Source: a virus (taxonomy: Duplodnaviria; Heunggongvirae; Uroviricota; Caudoviricetes). Taken from it: DNA of 22,610 nucleotides. Both the position numbers and the translations under genes were made by a program. Where the stretch lies: IMG/VR virus record IMGVR_UViG_2526164650_000003; one strand, written 5' to 3'. The notes under the pieces are model-generated. The model saw only the letters and a program-made list of their open reading frames with translations. It made no database searches and was not told the origin of the DNA. Every line of letters starts with the position of its first letter. Position 1 is the first letter of the stretch. Below, piece after piece: positions 1 through 22,610 of the stretch.

Positions 1-610
1 TGCCGGTCAGCGCAGCATCAATGTCATTTTGGTCCTGTTCTGCTGCGCGGGCATAACCTGCGGCATCCTGTGCGCTCTGTCCGGCTGCGGCTGCATTTGC
101 TCCTGTGCTTGTCACATCTTCCGCAGTGGCCTTTCTGTCCTCAGCTGTGACGGTTGCATCCTGTCGGGCTTTCTCCGCAAAACGTTGTGCATCATCACGG
201 GCCGTTGCGGCTGCCGCCACATCCTGCGCCGTCTGCTGTGCGTTTCCGGCTGCAGCCCCGGCACTCTGCTGCGCCTGCGCCACCATTTCCTCAAAGCGCT
301 TCATCACCTCCGGACGTAAATCACCATCCTTTGGTGCATTCAGAAACGCGTTCAGTGTCCCCGGTGCATCAGTCGGTGCCACATCAATATCCCCGACACG
401 GGTTGGCTGCCAGCCGTTACAGTGAAGCGCAACCTCGTAATACCCCGGCTCAGCCTCAATCACATAAGCACCGTTATTGTCCGTCACGCAAGTGGCAACA
501 ACGTGTGCCACAACGGTCGGACTGGTTCTTCTGGCCCGCAGTTCAATCGCACAATTTACGACAGGTTTACCCGCCCCATCTTTCAGTACACCTGAAATCT
601 TTACTGCCAT
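1..610 (-). CDS. stf: Side tail fiber protein Stf, N-terminal part only (gene runs off the left edge of the window)
   Basis: Minus-strand ATG at 610..608 opens a frame reading MAVKISGVLKDGAGKPV..., the conserved N-terminus of lambda Stf (orf-401), with no stop before position 1. Position directly after lom matches lambda order J-lom-stf. Not in the ORF track because it is edge-truncated. Confidence 0.75.
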   Translation of the reverse strand, partial: MAVKISGVLKDGAGKPVVNCAIELRARRTSPTVVAHVVATCVTDNNGAYVIEAEPGYYEVALHCNGWQPTRVGDIDVAPTDAPGTLNAFLNAPKDGDLRPEVMKRFEEMVAQAQQSAGAAAGNAQQTAQDVAAAATARDDAQRFAEKARQDATVTAEDRKATAEDVTSTGANAAAAGQSAQDAAGYARAAEQDQNDIDAALTG

Positions 611-620
611 ATTCACCCCA

Positions 621-647
621 CAAAAAGCCCGCCTGAACCAGCGGGCT
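621..647 (-). terminator. Candidate intrinsic terminator downstream of lom
   Basis: 7-bp GC-rich inverted repeat agcccgc/gcgggct (626-632 / 641-647) with an 8-nt loop, followed on the minus strand by a U-tract (plus-strand a-run 621-626). Confidence 0.4.
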
Positions 648-673
648 GTCATAACACTGTGTTACCTGGCTAA

Positions 674-1340: not shown

Positions 1341-4300
1341 TCAGCTGATACTGATACCTGCTGTGGATTTCTTCATCACAACAACCAGCAAATCGCTGAT
1401 ACTTGCTGTGGGATACCAGCCATTTACCAGCCATGCCGATACAGAAAACTCCAGCGTCATGTGACCGTGACCGGCAGGCATATCAATAACACCCGTATAT
1501 ATCAGCGTATTATCCAGGGTCGTTCGGTTATAAATTTCAGCACCGTTTTTCTTCACTATCAGGCGGCATGACGAATAAATATTGTTATTCTTCCGCTCAT
1601 GTTTAGCACCGCGAAACGCCACCGCGGGAATAACAATTTGCCGATCAAACGGCTGATCGTCATAAACCCTGACGGTAATGGTCCCTGATGGCCACCTCTC
1701 CGGTGCCCGGGAGTCCCGTGGGAAAGGTTTGCCCACTGTTTTAACGAGATCGCCTTCAATCTGGTTCGCGGACAATTTTCCCAGAACCCGACAGTTCTTA
1801 TTAATCGTGACGTTGTTGAGCGTCCCGGAGTTCGCGTTCACGTTACCGCTGATATCGGCATTTTTCGCCGTCAGCCGTCCGCCAGGTGTCAGGGAAAATG
1901 CCGGAGGATTACCGCCGCTGGTAATGGTCGGAGCCGTCAGGCGTTTCAGGAACACGTCGTTCATGAATATCTGATCGCCCTGACCAACAAACATCGGCTT
2001 TGTGTTGCCATTCGCAGGATTAATCATCGCAATCCTGTCTGCCGCCAGCAGCACCTGACTCTGCATTCCTGCTGGCGTATTCTCAATACCGGCACCGATA
2101 CCCGCAATATAAAGGCGTCCGTCCTTCATCTGTTGCAGCTTCACAGCCCACATGCTGTTCAGGTTATTATTTGTATCAACCTGAACTTTCTGTATCTGCT
2201 GGATTGCAGCACTCTGATTTTCCAGTTTTTTATTGACGGTTTGCGTGATTTCATTGCTGACATTCGTAATGGACGTCCTGATTTCAGTCAGGTCCGGCGC
2301 AAGCTGACCGTTATCAATCTGCGTCCACAACTCCTTGCCGAGATGCGTTTTATTGATCAACCCTTTATAAAAACTCAGATAACCTTCCGCATCATCGCTC
2401 GCCCGACCGACGGCCTCCACAAATGCCGATTTGCCAACGGTGTTCACACTGCGAACGTAAAAATAATAATCATGGCCCGGCCTGATATTGATACTGGCGG
2501 CTATCCAGTACAGCGCCGTGCCAAGATAGCGGGCGCTGGTTTCAACCTGCCTGATATCCGCAATCCGCTTTTCCGAAAACCAGAACTCAAACTGCACCGT
2601 CGGGTCATATACAGCCAGTTTCGGGACCACCGTTATCTGAAAATACCCCGGTATCAGTTCAATAGTGACAGGCGCTGCCGGTGCCGCAATCCGGAACGAT
2701 ACCGACGCCGGATCGCCCTGCTGCCCCCGGGCATTTACCGCCCGGACTGTCAGACTGTAATTCCCCAGCGCCAGCTGCCTGAAGCGGTATGTGGTTTCCG
2801 TCGTCCTGGCTGTGCTGACCAGCCGCTCACTGCCGTCGTCCGCTGCCACGGTCAGGCGAAGCAGGAAGCTCACACCCTTCACCACCTTCGGCGTGTCCCA
2901 TCGCGCCAGCACCTGATATTCCCCGCTGTCTGCGGTGACTTCGGCGGTCAGATGCTGCACCGCTGGCGGCGTGACACCATTCACCGTGCCGCGCCGGTCA
3001 CCGTCAAAGTGTGCCCCGTTATCCACGATGGCCTCTTTTTCCGGCACATGCTGCACGGCGGTGATGGCATACGTGCCGTCGTCGTTCTCACGGATACTCA
3101 CGCAGCGGAACAGGCGCTGGCGCAGCGTCGGCAGCTTCAGCCCCCACACGCTGTATTCTGCAACGCCGTCAGGAACCCGGCTCACTTTCACCTTCACGCC
3201 GTCGGTGACGGACTGAACCTCCACGCTGACCGGATTGCCATTTCCGTCAACCAGGCTTATCAGCGTGGTACCGGAGGACGGCAGCGTGATTTCACGGTCG
3301 AGCGTCAGCGTCCGGGTCTGGCTGTTCACCGCCAGTACGCGACCACCGGTGCTGATACCGGCATAATCATCATCGCAGATTTCAATGACATCACCCGGTA
3401 CATGGCGAAGCCCTTCTGCGCCGACGCTGAAGTCCACGGTCTGCGTTTCCAGCAGTTCCGTTTTAATCAGCCACAGCCCGGCGCGGTGCGCCTGTCCCCG
3501 GCTGGTACAGCCAAAGGCATCCATCTTCGTGACGTTACGACCGTAACGGACAATGGCCTGCGTGTCCTCCACAAGCTCTGTCGCCGTCTCATGACCGTTG
3601 TCCGGATCAATCCAGTTCACCTCAACGACATTATGGCGGTCCTTCAGGGCGCTGAAGCTGTAGCGGAACGGCGCGCCATCATCCGGCATCACCACATTAC
3701 TGCGGTTATAGGTCCACACTTTATCCGACGGTCGGTCCTGCACGAACGTCAGCGTCTGCCCGTTCCATACCGGCATACAGCGCATCGCCGAGCAGAAATC
3801 ACTGAGAACATCCCACGCCTTACGCTGTGTGGTCAGGTAAGCGTTACAGGTGATGCGCGGCTCCGTGCCGCCAAATCCGTCCGGCACTGACTGGTCGCAG
3901 TACTGGCCGATGACATACAGCGCCCATTTGTCCACATCTGCCGCACCAAGACGTTTCCCCATGCCGTAGCGCGGATGAGTGAGCATGTCCCACAGACACC
4001 AGGCCATGTTGTTGCTGTATGCTGGCTTAAGCGTTCCGTCCCAGATACCGCTGTATTGCCGCGTCTGCGGGTTATAGTTCGACGGCACCTGCAGAATGCG
4101 CCCGCGAAGATGATAATTGCGACTCACCTGCTGGTTACCGAACTGCTCTGAATCCACCTGCACGCCGACCAGCGCCGTGTTCGGGTAGCACTGTTTCACA
4201 TCGATGATTTCGGTGTACGACGACCAGAGCGTTTTGTTCTGCAGCTGGTCTGTGGTGCTGTCCGGTGTCATCCTGCGCATCCGGATATTAAACGGGCGCG

Positions 4301-4820
4301 GCGGCAGGTTACCCACCACCACCGAGGCCAGATACTGCGAAGTGGTTTTGCCCTTAATGGTGATGTCTTTTTCCGTCACCCAGCCACCGTTACGCTGTAT
4401 CTGAACCAGCAGGCGGACTTCCGACGGATTCCGGTCCCCCTTTGAGGTGGTTTCCACCAGTGCCTGCACACCGAAGGTCAGGCGCAGACGATCAATGTTT
4501 GCCGACGTGATGGTCCGGGTGATCGGCGTGTCGTATTTCACTTCCGTACCCAGCACAGTCTCTGAGCCGGAAGATTCAAACCCCTCCGGCGGTGTCTGCT
4601 CCTGCTCGCCGGCGCGGAACACCACCGTAACACCGGAAAAGTTTGTCTTCCCCTCGCTATCCAGGACCGGCGTACCGTTCAGCAGCACGCTTTTTAATCC
4701 ATCCACCGGACCGTCAACCGGCCCTTCGCTGATGGCATCAATCACACTCAGCAACTGCGTGGATTTCAGGTTGTCCTTCGCTTCGCGCGGGGTATGCCCC
4801 TTACTGCTGCCTTTACCCAT
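1341..4820 (-). CDS. J: Tail tip host-specificity protein J (central tail fiber)
   Basis: Uninterrupted 1159-aa ORF, size and position as lambda J (recalled as 1132 aa); N-terminal [14 protein letters not shown] motif resembles lambda J; follows I in lambda order. Confidence 0.9.
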
Positions 4821-4880
4821 TCCTCACGCTCCATAAACGACAAAACCGCCCGCAGGCGGTTTCACATGAAACATTTTGCA

Positions 4881-5522
4881 TCAGCGACCAATCACCACAA
4901 CCTGACCACCATCCCCTTCGTCTGCCGTGCTGATCTCCTGAGATACCACCCGCGACCCCACGCGCATTTCACCGTACAGAACAGGCAGAACATTGCCCTG
5001 GGCAACCATGTTATCCAGTGAGGAGAAACAGGTGTTCTGTTTGCCGTTATCCGTTGTCTGTGTACGGGGAGTTCTGGCTTTCGGTGCCAGCATCTGTGCA
5101 ACACCGCCAAGCGTCATACTGGCACCGAGAGAAAACAGCAGATTACTCGCCATAATTCCTACCCCCGGCATCCATATAGCAACCGCCATAACAGCTGCCC
5201 CCAGCACCGCCTGAAACACACCGCCACTTTTAGCTCCCACCAGACGCGGTACTATGTGGATCACTGCACCATTTGCCAGCGGCTCATTAAGACGGGCAGA
5301 CAATTCGGTTTCACCTGCATCACGCCCGGCAATGCGCACCTGATACCAGCCGTCACTCAGTTTCTGACGAAACGCCGGGAGCTGTGTGGCCAGTGCGCGG
5401 ATGGCTTCAGCCCCCGTTTTCACACGAAGGTCGATGCGGCGGCCAAATCGTTGCAAATCCCCGTAAAGGCAGATGCGTGCCATTCCCGGTGACGCCAGAG
5501 GGAGTGTGTGCGTCGCTGCCAT
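4881..5522 (-). CDS. I: Tail assembly protein I
   Basis: 213-aa ORF starting MAATHTLPLASPGMARICLYGDLQRFGRRIDLRVKTGAEAIRALATQLPAFRQKLSDGWYQVRIAGRD, recognisably lambda gpI; position between K and J. Confidence 0.85.
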   Translation of the reverse strand: MAATHTLPLASPGMARICLYGDLQRFGRRIDLRVKTGAEAIRALATQLPAFRQKLSDGWYQVRIAGRDAGETELSARLNEPLANGAVIHIVPRLVGAKSGGVFQAVLGAAVMAVAIWMPGVGIMASNLLFSLGASMTLGGVAQMLAPKARTPRTQTTDNGKQNTCFSSLDNMVAQGNVLPVLYGEMRVGSRVVSQEISTADEGDGGQVVVIGR

Positions 5523-6163
5523 TTGTCGGTATACCTCTCTCGTTTACTCAGTTGTTCAGGAATATGGTGCAGCAGCTCACCATCGCCGCAGTAAATGGCG
5601 GCATGATTCGGCACCGATGAACCAAAACAGCACAGCAGCACATCGCCCGGTTGTGCTGATGACAACGGCACCTGATACAGCCCTGTGGCCTCCAGATTAT
5701 CCAGATAGAGATTCTGACCGTGACGCCACCAGTCATCCCCGCGATGAAAATCCGGCATCTCGATCCCCGCCAGATGATAAGCATCCCGGAACAGCGTGTA
5801 ACAGTCCGTCACCCCGTGCTCAAAGCGCCGCCCGGTGAGATGCGGCACACAGCGGAACTTGTGAATCGTCCCCCGGCAGACCAGCCACCACGGCAAATCA
5901 CTCTGCACCTGCAGCCGCCGGTCAGCCTCACTCAGCCAGGGCAGACCACCGGGATGACTGTGGACCAGTGCCACAATCTCACCCTGCATTTGTGCCCGCA
6001 GCCAGTCCTCCGGAGCCATCCGGAACCGTTCCTCCGGCTCACCGGAGATATTCTCGCTGGGAAGATACCTGTCTCCCTCCGGCGTTCTCACCACGAAGCC
6101 ACACGACTCCGCTGGCGCACATCGCCGGGCGTGCGCCAGAATCGCTGATTCTGTCTGTGTCAT
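5420..6163 (-). CDS. K: Tail assembly protein K (probable MPN/JAB plus NlpC/P60-like domains)
   Basis: ATG at 6163..6161, 4 nt after the L stop, reads MTQTESAILAHARRCAPAESCGFVV...HSHPGG... (247 aa). The ORF track's 335-aa version is an upstream extension running into L. The 3' end overlaps I by 103 nt. Confidence 0.8.
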   Translation of the reverse strand: MTQTESAILAHARRCAPAESCGFVVRTPEGDRYLPSENISGEPEERFRMAPEDWLRAQMQGEIVALVHSHPGGLPWLSEADRRLQVQSDLPWWLVCRGTIHKFRCVPHLTGRRFEHGVTDCYTLFRDAYHLAGIEMPDFHRGDDWWRHGQNLYLDNLEATGLYQVPLSSAQPGDVLLCCFGSSVPNHAAIYCGDGELLHHIPEQLSKRERYTDKWQRRTHSLWRHREWHASAFTGICNDLAAASTFV

Positions 6164-6167
6164 GGAT

Positions 6168-6866
6168 TTACTGAGAAAGTTTATTGATGGAAAGGAAACC
6201 GCCGAAATTACCGGTATTGTTGCGCAACTCACACCCGCGCATACACTTGCTGCATTTGTCCTTCCGGATATCCGTTGTTGGTTTGTCGAACTCGTCAGCC
6301 ACTGCCCTGCCCGTGTAACCACACTCATCAGAACGGTAAGTCCACATACAGGTATTCGCCAGCATGATACGCCCCGGGAAAACCGCGCCATCCGTCTCCG
6401 TTGGTGTGGCCAGCACAAAAGAGGCACTGACCGCGCTCAGTTCGCTGCACTGCTCGATGCGCCAGCGGCTGATCACCTCCTGTTCCGGATCGGCGTCGCT
6501 GTTTCCGTTGACGAAGTTCACCGCATCCAGAAAACGGGCGTAAACCTTACGCCGGACCACCGTTCCGCCGACCAGACTCTGCAGATCTTCCGCCATCCCG
6601 GTGACCATGCCGTGCAGGTTAGAGACCGTCAGTGTCGGACGGGCAGCACAGCCCCTGCCGTTCAGTTCAAACCCCGACCCCTGAATGGGGTATGCCTGAT
6701 ACTGCCGCCCCTGCCAGGTGACCGGCTCACCTTTTTCGTTCTGCTCATTACAGAAAAAATAACGCTCACCACCGACCTCTGTCAGATCGATTTCCCAGAG
6801 CTCCACCCGGGCTGACTGCTCCGCACGGGTGCATTCATTCAGTGTTTCCTGCCGGATATCCTGCAT
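6168..6866 (-). CDS. L: Minor tail protein L
   Basis: 232-aa ORF (MQDIRQETLNECTRAEQSARVELWEIDLTEVGGERYFFCNE...) of the same length as lambda gpL and in the M-L-K position; start overlaps the M stop. Confidence 0.9.
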   Translation of the reverse strand: MQDIRQETLNECTRAEQSARVELWEIDLTEVGGERYFFCNEQNEKGEPVTWQGRQYQAYPIQGSGFELNGRGCAARPTLTVSNLHGMVTGMAEDLQSLVGGTVVRRKVYARFLDAVNFVNGNSDADPEQEVISRWRIEQCSELSAVSASFVLATPTETDGAVFPGRIMLANTCMWTYRSDECGYTGRAVADEFDKPTTDIRKDKCSKCMRGCELRNNTGNFGGFLSINKLSQ

Positions 6867-7195
6867 CAGTTCACCACCTGTTCAAAATCGGCCGTTACAG
6901 TCACCCATAACGCCCCCACGCTTGCCGACCATTTACGACAAACCACCCTGATCAGTTTCCAGTCATAAGGTGGCGTCCACTGAAATGCGCGGACGCCACC
7001 GTGCCGTTCCAGAAAGGCTTTTAAAGATGGGTGTTCACCTTTACGAACACGTATCGTCACGCTGTAAGTCGACAACTGGTTATTCAGTCCCGCCGCACGA
7101 CGCTGTTCATAACCATCGCCCAGCTTCACTGTCACCACTTTCGGCTCTGATACCACATTCATATCCGGGCGCACTTTCCAGTGAAACGTCTCCAT
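6866..7195 (-). CDS. M: Minor tail protein M
   Basis: 109-aa ORF (METFHWKVRPDMNVVSEPKVVTVKLGDGYEQRRAAG...) of the same length as lambda gpM; start overlaps the end of H. Confidence 0.9.
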   Translation of the reverse strand: METFHWKVRPDMNVVSEPKVVTVKLGDGYEQRRAAGLNNQLSTYSVTIRVRKGEHPSLKAFLERHGGVRAFQWTPPYDWKLIRVVCRKWSASVGALWVTVTADFEQVVN

Positions 7196-10100
7196 TACCG
7201 GTATGCTCCACTTAACCGGCCACCATCACGGGCCTGCTGTTGCATAAAGTCCGCGGCCGCTTTTTTCCCGAGGTCATAAACCACCTTCAGGGCAGCCGGA
7301 CCTATCTGCCCGTTCGTGCCGTCGTTATTGATCTCAATGTTGTACTGCGGGGCAAACATCACCATGCCTGAACCACCAGTATCCGCCACAACCCCCAGCT
7401 TACCATCAGCACCGCGACGCAGTGGCAGAATGGCTTCAGGTCCCGCTTCCCTCATCACACCCGCGCCTTTTGCAAAAGCAAAAAACGTCGGACGGTTAAC
7501 CACCGTGCCACTGTAGCGACTCAAATCAGCAGACTGGTAAACACCGCCATCAGCATTAGTCGTGAAGCCGAATAAAGAACCGACGCCCTTTACCGCCTGC
7601 ATCATGGCCATCTGTGCCATAATTCTGGCCATATCTGACAACAGGGAAGAGGTGAAGGATTTAAAATTCAGCTTACCGGTGGTACAGAATGTCGCCAGTG
7701 CATTACCGGCACTGCTGAATGCCACTGTAAACATCTGTTCTGCCGTTCCCGCCGCATTATCCGCATCCGCCGTAAAATTCTGAAACGCCCGCATGGCACC
7801 GTTTTTCCAGTCGCCCTGCGCCACTTCCAGTTCCTGCCAGTAGCGTTTGTTTTCATTCAGTTGTCGCTTCAGGCTCCCCTTCAGCACCTCCTCAGCCCTC
7901 CGGTAGTCCTCCGTCCCGTAAGTGCCTTTCTGGCGACTGTCATTCTCAAGCTGTTGCAACTGTTGCCGGTATTCCTGCCGGATGCGCAACTGTGCCTGGT
8001 AGCGCTGCCGCTGCTTATCCCCCATACCTGCAGTGGCAATATCCAGATTGTGCTGCTCACGCAGTGCACGTTCTTTGTCTGCCAGCTGGCTGGTCAGCTG
8101 TAACCGTTTTTTTCTCTAGGTCGTTAAGCGTCTGTCTGTTTCTGTCAGCTCCTGTCTGTTTCACATCCAGCAGCGTCAGCGCCTGAATCAGCTCATTCTT
8201 ACGGGCCAGCACACTCTTTTCATCTGCCGTCAGCTTTTTCCCGTCCAGGTCGCTGATGCGCTGCTGCAGGGCCAGAAGCTGTTTATGCGCTTCAGTCATC
8301 CTTTCAGTGGCAATGCCTGCTGACTGTCTGGCAGCAGCAATCTGCCCTTCCACCTGTGCCTGCTGCTGACTGTACTGCAGCAATAACCGGGTGGCCTCAT
8401 CATTACGGGTTGCCCGTGTATTTTTCTTAATGGCTTTTTCGTAACGTTCATTTTCACGCTGTATCGCCGCATCCCTGACAGCCTGGTCGGCGTACTGCAT
8501 GGCATTAATACGCGCAATTTCCCGCTGATGTCGTGCAGCTTCCGTTTCATTCATCCGGTTCAGCGCGGCATTTTCAGCATTCCGGCGTTTCTGTTGCTCC
8601 TGGTAATTCCGTTCTGCCTGCGCTTTTGCATCCTGCAAATCCTTCCGGCGTTTTTTCTCCTGAAGATCGTTAAGACGCTGCTGATCGTACTCCACCTGTG
8701 TGGAGGCGTTTGTCCACGGATATTTTTTCGCGCGCTGAATTTTTTCCTGTAACGCATCAATCTGCGCATCCAGCGAGTCTTCACGACCAATATTCATGGC
8801 CGCATCCCAGAACTGCTTCCACCAGTCAGACAAGGTTTGCAGCGTACTACCCAGCGCATTGAGATTATTATCAATATCAGATGTGCGTTTACCGGTTTCC
8901 TCTGCCAGCGCAGACATGGCGATCCGGGCCGCATCACTGGACCGCCCCTGCTCCCCAAGGACGCGTATCTGCTCAAGCTGAGTGGCATTCAAAAAATGCA
9001 GCGCATTGTCCAGCGCCTTCGCGGCATTTACAGGATCATCCTTCAGCCGCTTAAACTGATTTATGGTATCGCTGACCGACTGGCCAACCGATCGCTCCAT
9101 CTGTGCGGCAGCTTTCGCCACCATACCAATATCGTTTGCATGAAATGCCCCACTCGCCCACCACCTGTGCCAGCGCACCGGCTGCCGCATGTTGCGTGAT
9201 ACCATTCCCGGATATGGCCCGGCTGAGTTTCCACAACTGCCCGACAGTGACACCGGCATAATGTCCCGTCAGCGCCAGCTGACGGTTAAATTTCTCGCCC
9301 TCCTTCCGGCCGTCATGCCAGGCTTTACCCAGACCCAGGACCGCCGCGACAAGTCCGCCAATAACGCCGCCAGTCATCATGCCTTTCGGTGACATCAGTG
9401 CGCCTGTCCATCCGGCACGGTTAGCCAGCGTTATCCCGGATCCCCTCAGCGCACCAAAATTGCCTCGCGCCATCTGACTGATTAACACCCCCAGCTCCCG
9501 CCGGGCTGCCGCACTTTTCAGCCCCAGCGAATGTGTGGCTTTTCCTGCCCGCTCCATTTTGCGGATATACACTTCTGCAGCACTGCTTACCCCCAGCTGA
9601 GCCGCCCTGGCGCGAAGCAACTCAGAAGACGACAGATTCTGGCGGGTTGCCTGCTCTTTAAGCTGGCGGATAAACGCCGCTTTCTGCCGGGTGGCCTGTT
9701 CCTCTGCCTGCGTCAGGGCACGGGTTTTCGCCGTGATCTCCGAAATCAGCGCCAGATAATCCTGCTGACCAACCCCGCCACTGTTTCTGGCCTGTCGGAT
9801 CTGCTGCTGAATACGCTGTAATTCCTGAAGCCCCGCACCGGCCTGTTTCACACTGTCAATCTGGCGATAAAAGGCGGCAGCCGCTTTATCCTGCGCCTCC
9901 GCCAGTGCCCTGGCCTGCGCCTGTTCCTCGCGCATTTTCTGATTCAGGGTCATCCACGCGCAGACGGGTTTGTTCCACCTCACGGGCCATGCGTTCATGA
10001 GCCCGTGCATTCTTCTCCACCGTCTGCGCATGGGCTGATGCTGCTGTTGCAGCCGAAGAAGCCGCCTGCATTGTCTGCCGGGCCGCCTGAGTCTGACGCT

Positions 10101-10242
10101 CCATAAAACGCTGCATACGGGCAGAAGACCGTTCTGCATCGCTGGCTGCACCATTCAGAAGGTTTTTGATACGGGGAATTTCATTTTTAAACTCTGCCGC
10201 ATCAATCCCCAAATCAATGACCAGGTTGGCTATCTGGTCCAT
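7195..10242 (-). pseudogene. H: Tail tape-measure protein H, disrupted by three frameshifts (about 1015 codons if restored)
   Basis: Four consecutive minus-strand ORFs (9886-10272, 9051-10154, 8057-9259, 7195-8025) in frames 0,2,1,0. The C-terminal piece ends ...NNDGTNGQIGPAALKVVYDLGKKAAADFMQQQARDGGRLSGAYR, close to the lambda gpH C-terminus. Frame changes map near 9940-9960, 9140-9160 and 8107-8113. Confidence 0.8.
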
Positions 10243-10543
10243 AACGCACACCTCCGGAAATACCTTCCCCAAGATGCATCAGTTCTTCGTCCGTTCGCTC
10301 CGGTATCCCGTTCTCTTCCGGTAAAAGGCTGAAATCAGCCACCGCAGCATCGCTGCTGCCGGACACCATTCTCACGATCAATGCCTTCAGCGAGGCAAAC
10401 TGCGCATCCATCCACACATCACTGAAGCTCTGCATCCGGAAATAATCGCCCCACTCACCAAGCTCAGTGGCCGACATATCCGACAGCATCCGCCGCCAGT
10501 CTGCCCGCCGGAACTCCCGGGCAAGCCGCATGACAAACTGCAT
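10214..10543 (-). CDS. T: Tail assembly chaperone T, expressed as a G-T fusion by programmed -1 ribosomal frameshift
   Basis: 109-aa ORF in the -1 frame relative to G; the T frame is open from 10582 through the G stop. Slippery-type heptamer G_GAA_AAG sits 2 codons before the G stop. Arrangement conserved in lambdoid tail modules. Confidence 0.75.
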   Translation of the reverse strand: MQFVMRLAREFRRADWRRMLSDMSATELGEWGDYFRMQSFSDVWMDAQFASLKALIVRMVSGSSDAAVADFSLLPEENGIPERTDEELMHLGEGISGGVRYGPDSQPGH

Positions 10544-10551
10544 TTCCCGCG

Positions 10552-21766: not shown

Positions 21767-22610
<844 letters not shown>

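What the first reader, a model, noticed from the sequence alone, without database searches (positions are those of the whole stretch)
7195..10242. Tape-measure gene H is broken by three same-direction +1 frameshifts, each at a homopolymer, that sum to zero
The H reading frame steps 0 to 2 to 1 to 0 across four ORF pieces. Each shift is repaired by removing one base from a short run: a C-run near 9947-9949 (restoring ...VDDLNQKMREEQ...), a G-run near 9148-9151 (...GEWAFHANDIG...) and the 7-T run at 8107-8113 (...LEKKRLQLTSQLADKERALREQ...). The 3.5-kb J gene and every other tail gene are intact, so damage is concentrated in H. This could be real pseudogenisation or homopolymer sequencing/assembly error. 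If real, the prophage cannot build a tail even though the rest of the module looks functional.
Basis: partly seen in the sequence, partly recalled or inferred. Interest (0 to 1): 0.6.

Follow-up and report, generated by a model that had tools for sequence, protein, structure and literature searches.

The report
Artefactual frameshifts in prophage tape-measure gene
The lambda-type tail tape-measure gene on this Shigella flexneri draft contig really is split into four pieces, but the eight one-base indels that split it occur in no other assembly and look like pyrosequencing consensus errors, not gene decay, so the finding is ordinary.

Summary
The window is the whole 22,610-bp contig of the Shigella flexneri 2930-71 draft genome. 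Gene H (10242..7195, minus strand) does read in frames 0, 1, 2, 0 as four ORF pieces.

Against the orthologous gene in complete S. flexneri genomes (3042 nt, 1013 aa, identical in several genomes and seen on at least 1000 contigs), the window carries eight indel events, not three:
- Seven single-base insertions, at 9950, 9155, 8155, 8145, 8131, 8117 and 8101. None of them lengthens a run.
- One lost base in the 8107-8113 run, which is therefore one base too short, not too long.

All eight are private to this assembly. The other 18.4 kb of the contig has no indels and nine substitutions against the same reference genome.

A sibling draft (strain K-671) has its own eight or so private indels in V and H. 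These include the same motif: a run loses one A and a stray A appears a few bases on.

This pattern matches pyrosequencing phasing and homopolymer errors in a locally poor consensus. My confidence in the artefact reading is about 0.85, and about 0.1 for real decay. Either way the prophage is already defective, because an IS110-family element replaces its head and lysis genes. Interest is low.

The parts
7195..10242 (-). Lambda-type tail tape-measure gene H. It is 3048 nt here against 3042 nt (1013 aa) in intact orthologues.
   Evidence: Pfam TMP_2, TMP_4 and Tape_meas_lam_C are found in order.
9886..10242 (-). Piece 1 (118 aa, frame 0), ending at a stop created by the insertion at 9950.
9051..10154 (-). 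Piece 2 ORF (frame 1). The deposited CDS is 9051-9935, 294 aa, EGJ96940.1.
   Evidence: Covers TMP_2 profile positions 2-143.
8057..9259 (-). Piece 3 ORF (frame 2). The deposited CDS is 8057-9100, 347 aa, EGJ96939.1.
   Evidence: Covers TMP_2 profile positions 163-208 plus TMP_4.
7195..8025 (-). Piece 4 (276 aa, frame 0; frame open from 8115). Deposited as EGJ96938.1.
   Evidence: Tape_meas_lam_C hit.
9950..9950 (-). Private extra A (T on the + strand), GATG[A]CCCTG. It sits next to the CCC run, not within it. Causes the shift from frame 0 to 1.
9155..9155 (-). Private extra G (C on the + strand), GGGC[G]AGTGGGG. It sits 3 nt upstream of the GGGG run and one base after a GGG run. Causes the shift from frame 1 to 2.
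8131..8155 (-). Three private extra A's at 8155, 8145 and 8131 (CAG[A]CAG, CTG[A]CAG, CAG[A]CGC). Together they add +3, so the frame is restored after a garbled stretch.
8101..8117 (-). Extra A at 8117 (CCT[A]GAG); the A run at 8107-8113 is A7 where the intact allele has A8; extra A at 8101 (GTT[A]CAG). The net effect is +1, which causes the shift from frame 2 to 0.
   Evidence: The same 'run loses one, stray base appears nearby' motif occurs in the K-671 draft.
7452..9390 (-). Three private substitutions in H: 9390 (synonymous), 9138 (G368A) and 7452 (G929R).
   Evidence: No intact protein carrying either change is in the collection.
10214..10956 (-). Tail assembly chaperone genes G (10552-10938) and T (10214-10543), immediately upstream of H. 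Both are intact.
6866..7195 (-). Gene M, immediately downstream of H and intact. Its exact protein is indexed in 8410 blocks of the collection.
13771..14967 (+). IS110-family transposase lying between FI and Q. It marks the loss of the head, packaging and lysis genes.

Best explanation
The tape-measure gene of this defective lambdoid prophage is most likely intact in the living strain. I think the four-piece appearance comes from consensus errors in a 2011 draft assembly of S. flexneri 2930-71.

A stretch of about 1.85 kb inside H (9950 to 8101) carries seven spurious single-base insertions and one under-called homopolymer base. The proposed mechanism is inferred, not shown. Pyrosequencing-type phasing errors (carry-forward and incomplete extension) near homopolymers survived into the consensus because usable read support was locally poor. 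This module is present in at least two nearly identical copies per S. flexneri genome, which may explain the poor support.

Shown: the lesions, their privacy to this assembly, their restriction to H, and the same class of defect in a sibling draft.

Inferred: the sequencing platform and the low local coverage.
For: 1. All eight indels are private.
- Copies of H from complete Shigella genomes lack them. Most are 3042 nt, and those at the orthologous locus in six genomes are identical to each other.
- The exact intact 1013-aa protein is on at least 1000 contigs.
- The three deposited fragments are each seen on one contig only, this one.
- No E. coli complete genome carries the site-3 sequence; the best match is 96.5%.

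2. The spectrum is unlike natural divergence.
- Against CP026788 over 21,462 collinear nt, H has 8 indels and 3 substitutions. The other 18.4 kb has 0 indels and 9 substitutions.
- Fisher exact p = 0.0014.
- Substitutions are not enriched in H (p = 0.24).

3. Six of the eight events lie within 55 nt (8101-8155). Seven of the eight are non-homopolymer +1 insertions.

4. The error signature fits pyrosequencing.
- A8 becomes A7 with a stray A at the next A-less position downstream (AAAAAAA CGGTT[A]CAG), and GGG-C-[G].
- The literature describes carry-forward errors as single-base insertions near but not adjacent to a homopolymer of the same base (PMC3764156).
- In 454 Titanium reads, insertions are the commonest error and rise towards the 3' end of reads (PMC3116506).

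5. A sibling draft shows the same class of defect.
- S. flexneri K-671 contig AFHA01000061.1 has V in three pieces and H in three pieces.
- It has roughly eight private indels between L022 positions 2148 and 4958, and none in M through lom.
- These include AAAAAACTGG becoming AAAAACT[A]GG.
Against: - No reads, quality values or platform record could be inspected. The 454 attribution rests on the error signature and on my own recollection of that sequencing project.
- Random consensus errors would not by themselves concentrate in one gene. The explanation offered (repeat copies, poor local support) is inferred.
- H does suffer genuine lesions in other S. flexneri genomes, so real decay of this gene is not implausible. 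Examples are +T in strain 8401, a widespread 323-aa truncation on 624 contigs, and an in-frame 303-bp deletion.
- The two private nonsynonymous substitutions in H show that this copy differs somewhat from the standard allele.
Confidence: 0.85

Rival explanations
1. Genuine pseudogenisation. In strain 2930-71 the H gene of this already defective prophage has really acquired the eight indels and is decaying under relaxed selection.
For: - The prophage lacks head and lysis genes, so H is presumably not under selection for virion production.
- Other S. flexneri genomes carry their own H lesions.
- The window has a few private substitutions, so it is not identical to the sequenced relatives.
Against: - Eight indels against three substitutions in 3 kb, with zero indels and nine substitutions in the neighbouring 18.4 kb of equally unselected remnant.
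- From general knowledge, natural single-base indels concentrate in runs, yet seven of the eight here do not.
- Six events lie within 55 nt.
- All are private, while the intact allele is on at least 1000 contigs.
- A sibling draft from the same batch shows the same class of defect at different positions.
Confidence: 0.1
2. A localised mutagenic or recombinational event. This could be a gene-conversion patch from a diverged H paralogue, or error-prone repair synthesis, that rewrote part of H.
For: The differences are clustered and confined to one gene.
Against: - No donor was found. The site-3 sequence has no exact match in 5,426 E. coli genomes, in GTDB species representatives or in metagenome contigs.
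- Those last two collections barely contain even the intact form, so they add little.
- A conversion patch would bring substitutions, not pure +1 insertions into otherwise identical sequence.
Confidence: 0.03
3. Programmed translational recoding. The ribosome shifts +1 at three sites and makes full-length H from the sequence as deposited.
For: The three net shifts are all +1 and restore the frame.
Against: - Orthologues are uninterrupted single ORFs at every one of these sites, so the shift sites are not conserved features.
- Reading through would still give garbled residues at 8131-8155.
- No known +1 shift motif was seen.
Confidence: 0.01

Closest known systems
Tail length tape-measure protein gpH of lambda-like siphoviruses (closest phage records: mEp460, cdtI, Ayreon, about 87% nt identity)
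   Same: - Same Pfam architecture: TMP_2, TMP_4, Tape_meas_lam_C.
- Same position between G/T and M in a Z-U-V-G-T-H-M-L-K-I-J-lom module.
   Different: - The repaired protein is 1013 aa, longer than lambda's 853-aa H (name of record J02459). Only a 61-nt stretch reaches megablast similarity to lambda itself.
- In this contig the frame is interrupted.
Pyrosequencing (454) carry-forward, incomplete-extension and homopolymer miscalls
   Same: - Single-base insertions near but not adjacent to a same-base run.
- An under-called long run.
- Indels far outnumber substitutions, and the events are clustered.
   Different: - Such errors normally vanish from a consensus at normal coverage. Their survival here needs locally poor read support, which I could not check.
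- The platform of this assembly was not verified.
Genuine H-gene lesions in other Shigella flexneri prophage remnants
   Same: Same gene and same locus, in a defective, IS-ridden prophage.
   Different: The genuine lesions are single events:
- The 323-aa truncation from loss of one C is shared by many independent assemblies (624 contigs).
- There is a +T in strain 8401 and a 303-bp in-frame deletion.
None is a pile of eight private indels.

Membership tests
Lambda-type tail tape-measure protein (gpH) | Pfam TMP_2, TMP_4 and Tape_meas_lam_C domains in that order | tested here: met
   The pieces carry TMP_2 (split between pieces 2 and 3), TMP_4 (piece 3) and Tape_meas_lam_C (piece 4). The intact orthologue carries all three.
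Lambda-type tail tape-measure protein (gpH) | Gene lies between the G/T tail chaperone genes and M in the tail module | tested here: met
Lambda-type tail tape-measure protein (gpH) | One uninterrupted reading frame encoding the whole protein | tested here: not met
   One search shows four pieces in the window as deposited. The feature is met in orthologues.
Lambda-type tail tape-measure protein (gpH) | Determines tail length during assembly | not testable with these tools
   Requires experiment.
Pyrosequencing consensus error (carry-forward, incomplete extension, homopolymer miscall) | Indels dominate over substitutions and are local | tested here: met
   8 indels to 3 substitutions in H, against 0 to 9 in the other 18.4 kb. 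Fisher p = 0.0014.
Pyrosequencing consensus error (carry-forward, incomplete extension, homopolymer miscall) | Stray single base of the same kind as a nearby, non-adjacent homopolymer, and under-called long runs | tested here: inconclusive
   - Clear cases: A8 to A7 plus [A] at 8101, GGG-C-[G] at 9155, and AAA-CAG-[A] at 8155.
- Sites 8145 and 8117 fit only if read on the other strand.
- Site 9950 fits weakly (criterion from PMC3764156).
- Allowing either strand makes the test lenient.
Pyrosequencing consensus error (carry-forward, incomplete extension, homopolymer miscall) | Differences private to one assembly, with the intact allele elsewhere | tested here: met
Pyrosequencing consensus error (carry-forward, incomplete extension, homopolymer miscall) | Sibling assemblies of the same project show the same class of defect | tested here: met
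   The K-671 draft has V and H each in three pieces, with roughly eight private indels, mostly at runs. Only one sibling was examined.
Pyrosequencing consensus error (carry-forward, incomplete extension, homopolymer miscall) | Read-level evidence (low coverage or quality at the sites) and a platform record | not testable with these tools
   No reads or assembly metadata were available. Literature searches did not give the platform.
Programmed ribosomal frameshift site | Shift site and two-frame arrangement conserved in orthologues | tested here: not met
   Orthologues are single uninterrupted ORFs.
Genuine prophage pseudogene | Lesion reproduced in an independent assembly or in related strains | tested here: not met
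   All lesions are private. No second assembly of strain 2930-71 was found, so reality is not excluded.

The most novel reading that the evidence does not exclude
The eight indels are real. On this reading, strain 2930-71 (and, independently, K-671) underwent a localised burst of single-base insertion mutagenesis. The burst was confined to the V-H part of a resident prophage tail module and left the flanking 18 kb untouched. That would point to an unknown targeted or repair-associated indel process acting on repeated prophage DNA.
Probability: 0.04. Interest if true: 0.5.

Novelty: not a real feature. Interest (0 to 1): 0.05.

Why it matters
The value is mainly data hygiene.
- GenBank holds three separate proteins (EGJ96938.1, EGJ96939.1, EGJ96940.1) that are almost certainly fragments of one intact 1013-aa tape-measure protein.
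- Counts of pseudogenes or 'decayed prophages' drawn from such early Shigella drafts will be inflated.
- The case also shows a limit of reading ORF structure alone. It localises frame breaks to within a few bases, but it cannot identify the actual lesions. Plausible-looking homopolymer repairs can be wrong, and here one run is actually too short.
- No new biology follows.

Tried and rejected
- **Exact look-up of ORF pieces with first-start coordinates.** Only the start variants used in the GenBank annotation were on record. Each was on a single contig.
- **Fetching the contigs of other drafts directly.** The tool turned these look-ups away. I got round this by looking up exact neighbours (M and RusA) and by one homology search that made the K-671 fragment eligible.
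- **Exact look-up of Q with its GTG start.** Not on record.
- **Intact H proteins carrying the window's private amino-acid changes.** None were found, so no sister strain is available as a control.
- **Exact scans for the lesion-bearing 31-mer.** Metagenome contigs and GTDB representative genomes gave 0 hits. The intact 30-mer control gave only 1 and 4 hits, so these collections say little.
- **Literature searches for the sequencing platform of strains 2930-71 and K-671.** These gave no information on the sequencing platform. One paper's table gives the same assembly accession for 2747-71 and 2930-71, so I do not cite an accession.
- **A flow-order (TACG) consistency test of the inserted bases.** I considered this by reasoning and dropped it. 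Almost any non-homopolymer insertion passes, so it has no discriminating power.
- **'The three shifts sum to zero' as a signal.** Rejected: the chance expectation is 1 in 3, and the real total is +6 from eight events.
- **Programmed recoding and a gene-conversion patch.** Rejected; see the rival explanations.

Full report
**What is there.** The region 7195..10242 holds one gene on the minus strand. Translating it in three frames gives four long open pieces: frame 0 (10242..9889, 118 aa), frame 1 (10154..9054), frame 2 (9268..8060), and frame 0 again (8115..7198, ending at the normal stop). The length is 3048 nt. Pfam places TMP_2 on pieces 2 and 3 (profile positions 2-143 and 163-208), so one domain is cut by the second junction. 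TMP_4 falls on piece 3 and Tape_meas_lam_C on piece 4. The gene sits between the tail chaperone genes G/T and M, in the order lom-J-I-K-L-M-H-T-G-V-U-Z-FII-FI. It is a lambda-type tail tape-measure gene. The closest phage records (mEp460, cdtI, Ayreon and others) are about 87% identical in DNA.

**Where the window comes from.** An exact protein look-up shows that three of the pieces are deposited as EGJ96940.1 (294 aa), EGJ96939.1 (347 aa) and EGJ96938.1 (276 aa) of Shigella flexneri 2930-71. They sit on a contig of 22,610 bp, which is the window itself. Each fragment sequence is seen on that one contig only.

**The actual lesions.** Looking up the exact neighbouring proteins M and RusA brought in the same locus from several complete Shigella genomes, including CP026788, CP055138, CP012735, CP182555 and CP000266. 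At the orthologous locus of six of these genomes, H is a single 3042-nt ORF of 1013 aa, and those copies are identical to each other. Against them the window carries the following on the coding strand:
- An extra A at 9950 (GATG[A]CCCTG).
- An extra G at 9155 (GGGC[G]AGTGGGG).
- Extra A's at 8155, 8145 and 8131 (CAG[A]CAG, CTG[A]CAG, CAG[A]CGC).
- An extra A at 8117 (CCT[A]GAG).
- An A7 run at 8107-8113 where the intact allele has A8.
- An extra A at 8101 (GTT[A]CAG).
- Three substitutions: 9390 (silent), 9138 (G368A) and 7452 (G929R).

That makes eight indel events with a net change of +6, not three. None of the seven insertions lengthens a run. Within the third cluster, the three insertions at 8155-8131 add +3 and the pair at 8117 and the run cancel out. 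The uncompensated shift is therefore the A at 8101.

They leave 16 residue differences from the real allele around the junctions.

**Privacy and distribution.**
- The exact intact 1013-aa protein is on at least 1000 contigs, which is the counting cap.
- Versions of the intact protein carrying the window's amino-acid changes are absent.
- No complete E. coli genome matches the 8060-8200 stretch better than 96.5%.
- The whole contig (window 866-22326) is collinear with CP026788 over 21,462 nt, with 12 mismatches and 8 gaps. All eight gaps are in H.
- H therefore has 8 indels and 3 substitutions. The other 18.4 kb has 0 indels and 9 substitutions (Fisher p = 0.0014).
- Substitutions are not enriched in H (3 of 12, p = 0.24).
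- If the three lesion clusters were placed at random, the chance that all fall in H would be about 0.003.

**Interpretation.** Low, evenly spread substitution divergence with a local overlay of +1 insertions is not what neutral decay of a prophage remnant produces. The flanking genes are equally unselected and have no indels. From general knowledge, spontaneous single-base indels favour runs, which seven of these eight do not.

The pattern does match what is described for pyrosequencing:
- Insertions are the commonest error and increase towards the 3' end of reads (PMC3116506).
- Carry-forward errors are single-base insertions near but not adjacent to a homopolymer of the same base (PMC3764156).

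The clearest case is AAAAAAAA-CGGTT-CAG read as AAAAAAA-CGGTT-A-CAG: the run loses one A and an A appears at the next position where an A could be called. GGG-C-[G] at 9155 and AAA-CAG-[A] at 8155 are similar. Other sites fit only on the opposite strand or weakly, so I rate this signature test as suggestive, not conclusive.

**Sibling control.** One homology search made a fragment from another draft of the same series eligible for look-up. This is S. flexneri K-671, contig AFHA01000061.1. That contig carries the second copy of the same tail module.
- V is in three pieces and H is in three pieces.
- Against three complete-genome copies it has roughly eight private indels between locus positions 2148 and 4958 (V through mid-H), and none in M through lom.
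- Most are run-length miscalls (AAA to AA, TTT to TT, GG to GGG).
- One is the same motif as in the window: AAAAAACTGG read as AAAAACT[A]GG.

So two strains from one early draft series each have a private pile of indels in V-H at different positions. More than a thousand contigs from other projects carry the intact allele. That is a batch effect, which points to an artefact.

**Why H.** This part is inferred. S. flexneri genomes carry at least two copies of this module. In CP182555 the stretch that is identical between the two copies is exactly V-G-T-H; in CP026788 it runs from V to lom. Assemblers handle such exact repeats with reduced or ambiguous read placement. That could leave a consensus resting on few, poor read ends. 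I could not inspect reads, and I could not confirm the platform from the literature.

An IS110-family transposase gene (13771-14967) lies between FI and the antiterminator Q/RusA block. IS3-family fragments lie further on. No lysis, terminase, portal or capsid genes are present. The same arrangement is found in all complete S. flexneri genomes retrieved. The element cannot make virions whatever the state of H.

**Rivals.**
- Real pseudogenisation keeps about 0.1. H does have genuine lesions elsewhere: a 323-aa truncation on 624 contigs, a +T in strain 8401, and a 303-bp in-frame deletion. No independent assembly of strain 2930-71 exists in the collections searched.
- A conversion patch or a local mutagenic event gets about 0.03. 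No donor was found, and the changes are pure insertions.
- Programmed +1 recoding is effectively excluded by the uninterrupted orthologues.

**Verdict.** The ORF pattern is real in the deposited sequence. The homopolymer anatomy proposed for it is wrong. The most likely cause is sequencing or assembly error in an old draft (confidence about 0.85). Nothing here is new biology, and interest is low.

Noticed in passing
window 13771-14967 (+), with Q at 16153-16848 (-) and FI at 13106-13507 (-): An IS110-family transposase gene sits where the lysis, terminase, portal and capsid genes of a lambdoid prophage belong. The same junction is present in every complete S. flexneri genome retrieved (for example CP026788, CP055138, CP012735, CP000266), so the remnant is old and fixed. 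In the complete genomes where they are uninterrupted, the tail genes remain at full length.
   Followed up: partly
window 8107-8113; L009 (CP026788, second copy); L020 (CP102230): The A8 run of H varies between assemblies: A7 here, A9 in the second copy of CP026788 (which splits H into 726 + 276 aa), and A6 in CP102230 (which also has other run deletions). It is either a true slippage hot spot or a recurrent sequencing-error site.
   Followed up: partly
L011 and L012 (LR213452), corresponding to window 9612-9914: Both copies of H in this complete genome carry the same in-frame 303-bp deletion (912-aa protein). It is flanked by an 8-bp direct repeat, GCCAGGGC. If expressed, this would be a tape measure 101 residues shorter.
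   Followed up: partly
P0003 (323 aa, 624 contigs); corresponds to about window 9300: A truncated H ending ...GKAWHDGGRRARNLTVSWR is widespread in S. flexneri, including in chromosome-length contigs. It is explained by loss of one C in GGCCGG. This looks like a genuine, inherited frameshift in one prophage copy, in contrast to the private lesions of the window.
   Followed up: partly
L019 (CP000266, S. flexneri 5 str. 8401), corresponding to about window 9206: The orthologous H of this finished genome has a private +T insertion and four private substitutions, giving a stop at codon 397.
   Followed up: no
L022 (AFHA01000061.1, S. flexneri K-671), positions 1864-2605 and 3360-6398: The sibling draft has the major tail gene V in three pieces and H in three pieces, caused by private, mostly homopolymer indels. 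Its other tail genes have no indels.
   Followed up: yes
window 10540-10560 (-), end of G and start of T: T is in the -1 frame relative to G, as expected for the conserved G/GT programmed frameshift. However, the canonical GGGAAAG heptamer is absent from the end of G, and the sequence before the G stop is CCGGAAAAGTCCTGA.
   Followed up: no
window 2133-3890 (+): A 585-aa ORF runs antisense inside the J gene. It is probably a chance open frame and was not examined.
   Followed up: no
window 1-673 and 21939-22610: The contig ends inside the tail-fibre gene downstream of lom at one end and inside IS3-family transposase fragments at the other. Repeated sequences at contig ends are typical for a draft assembly.
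   Followed up: no
P0011 (EFS15020.1, draft of S. flexneri 2a 2457T): A draft re-sequencing of strain 2457T also has a fragment of H that goes out of frame within about 20 nt of the window's site 2 (...AAGALSRGGGQWGISWKRYWYGG...). Comparing it with the finished 2457T genome would measure that project's error rate directly in this gene.
   Followed up: no
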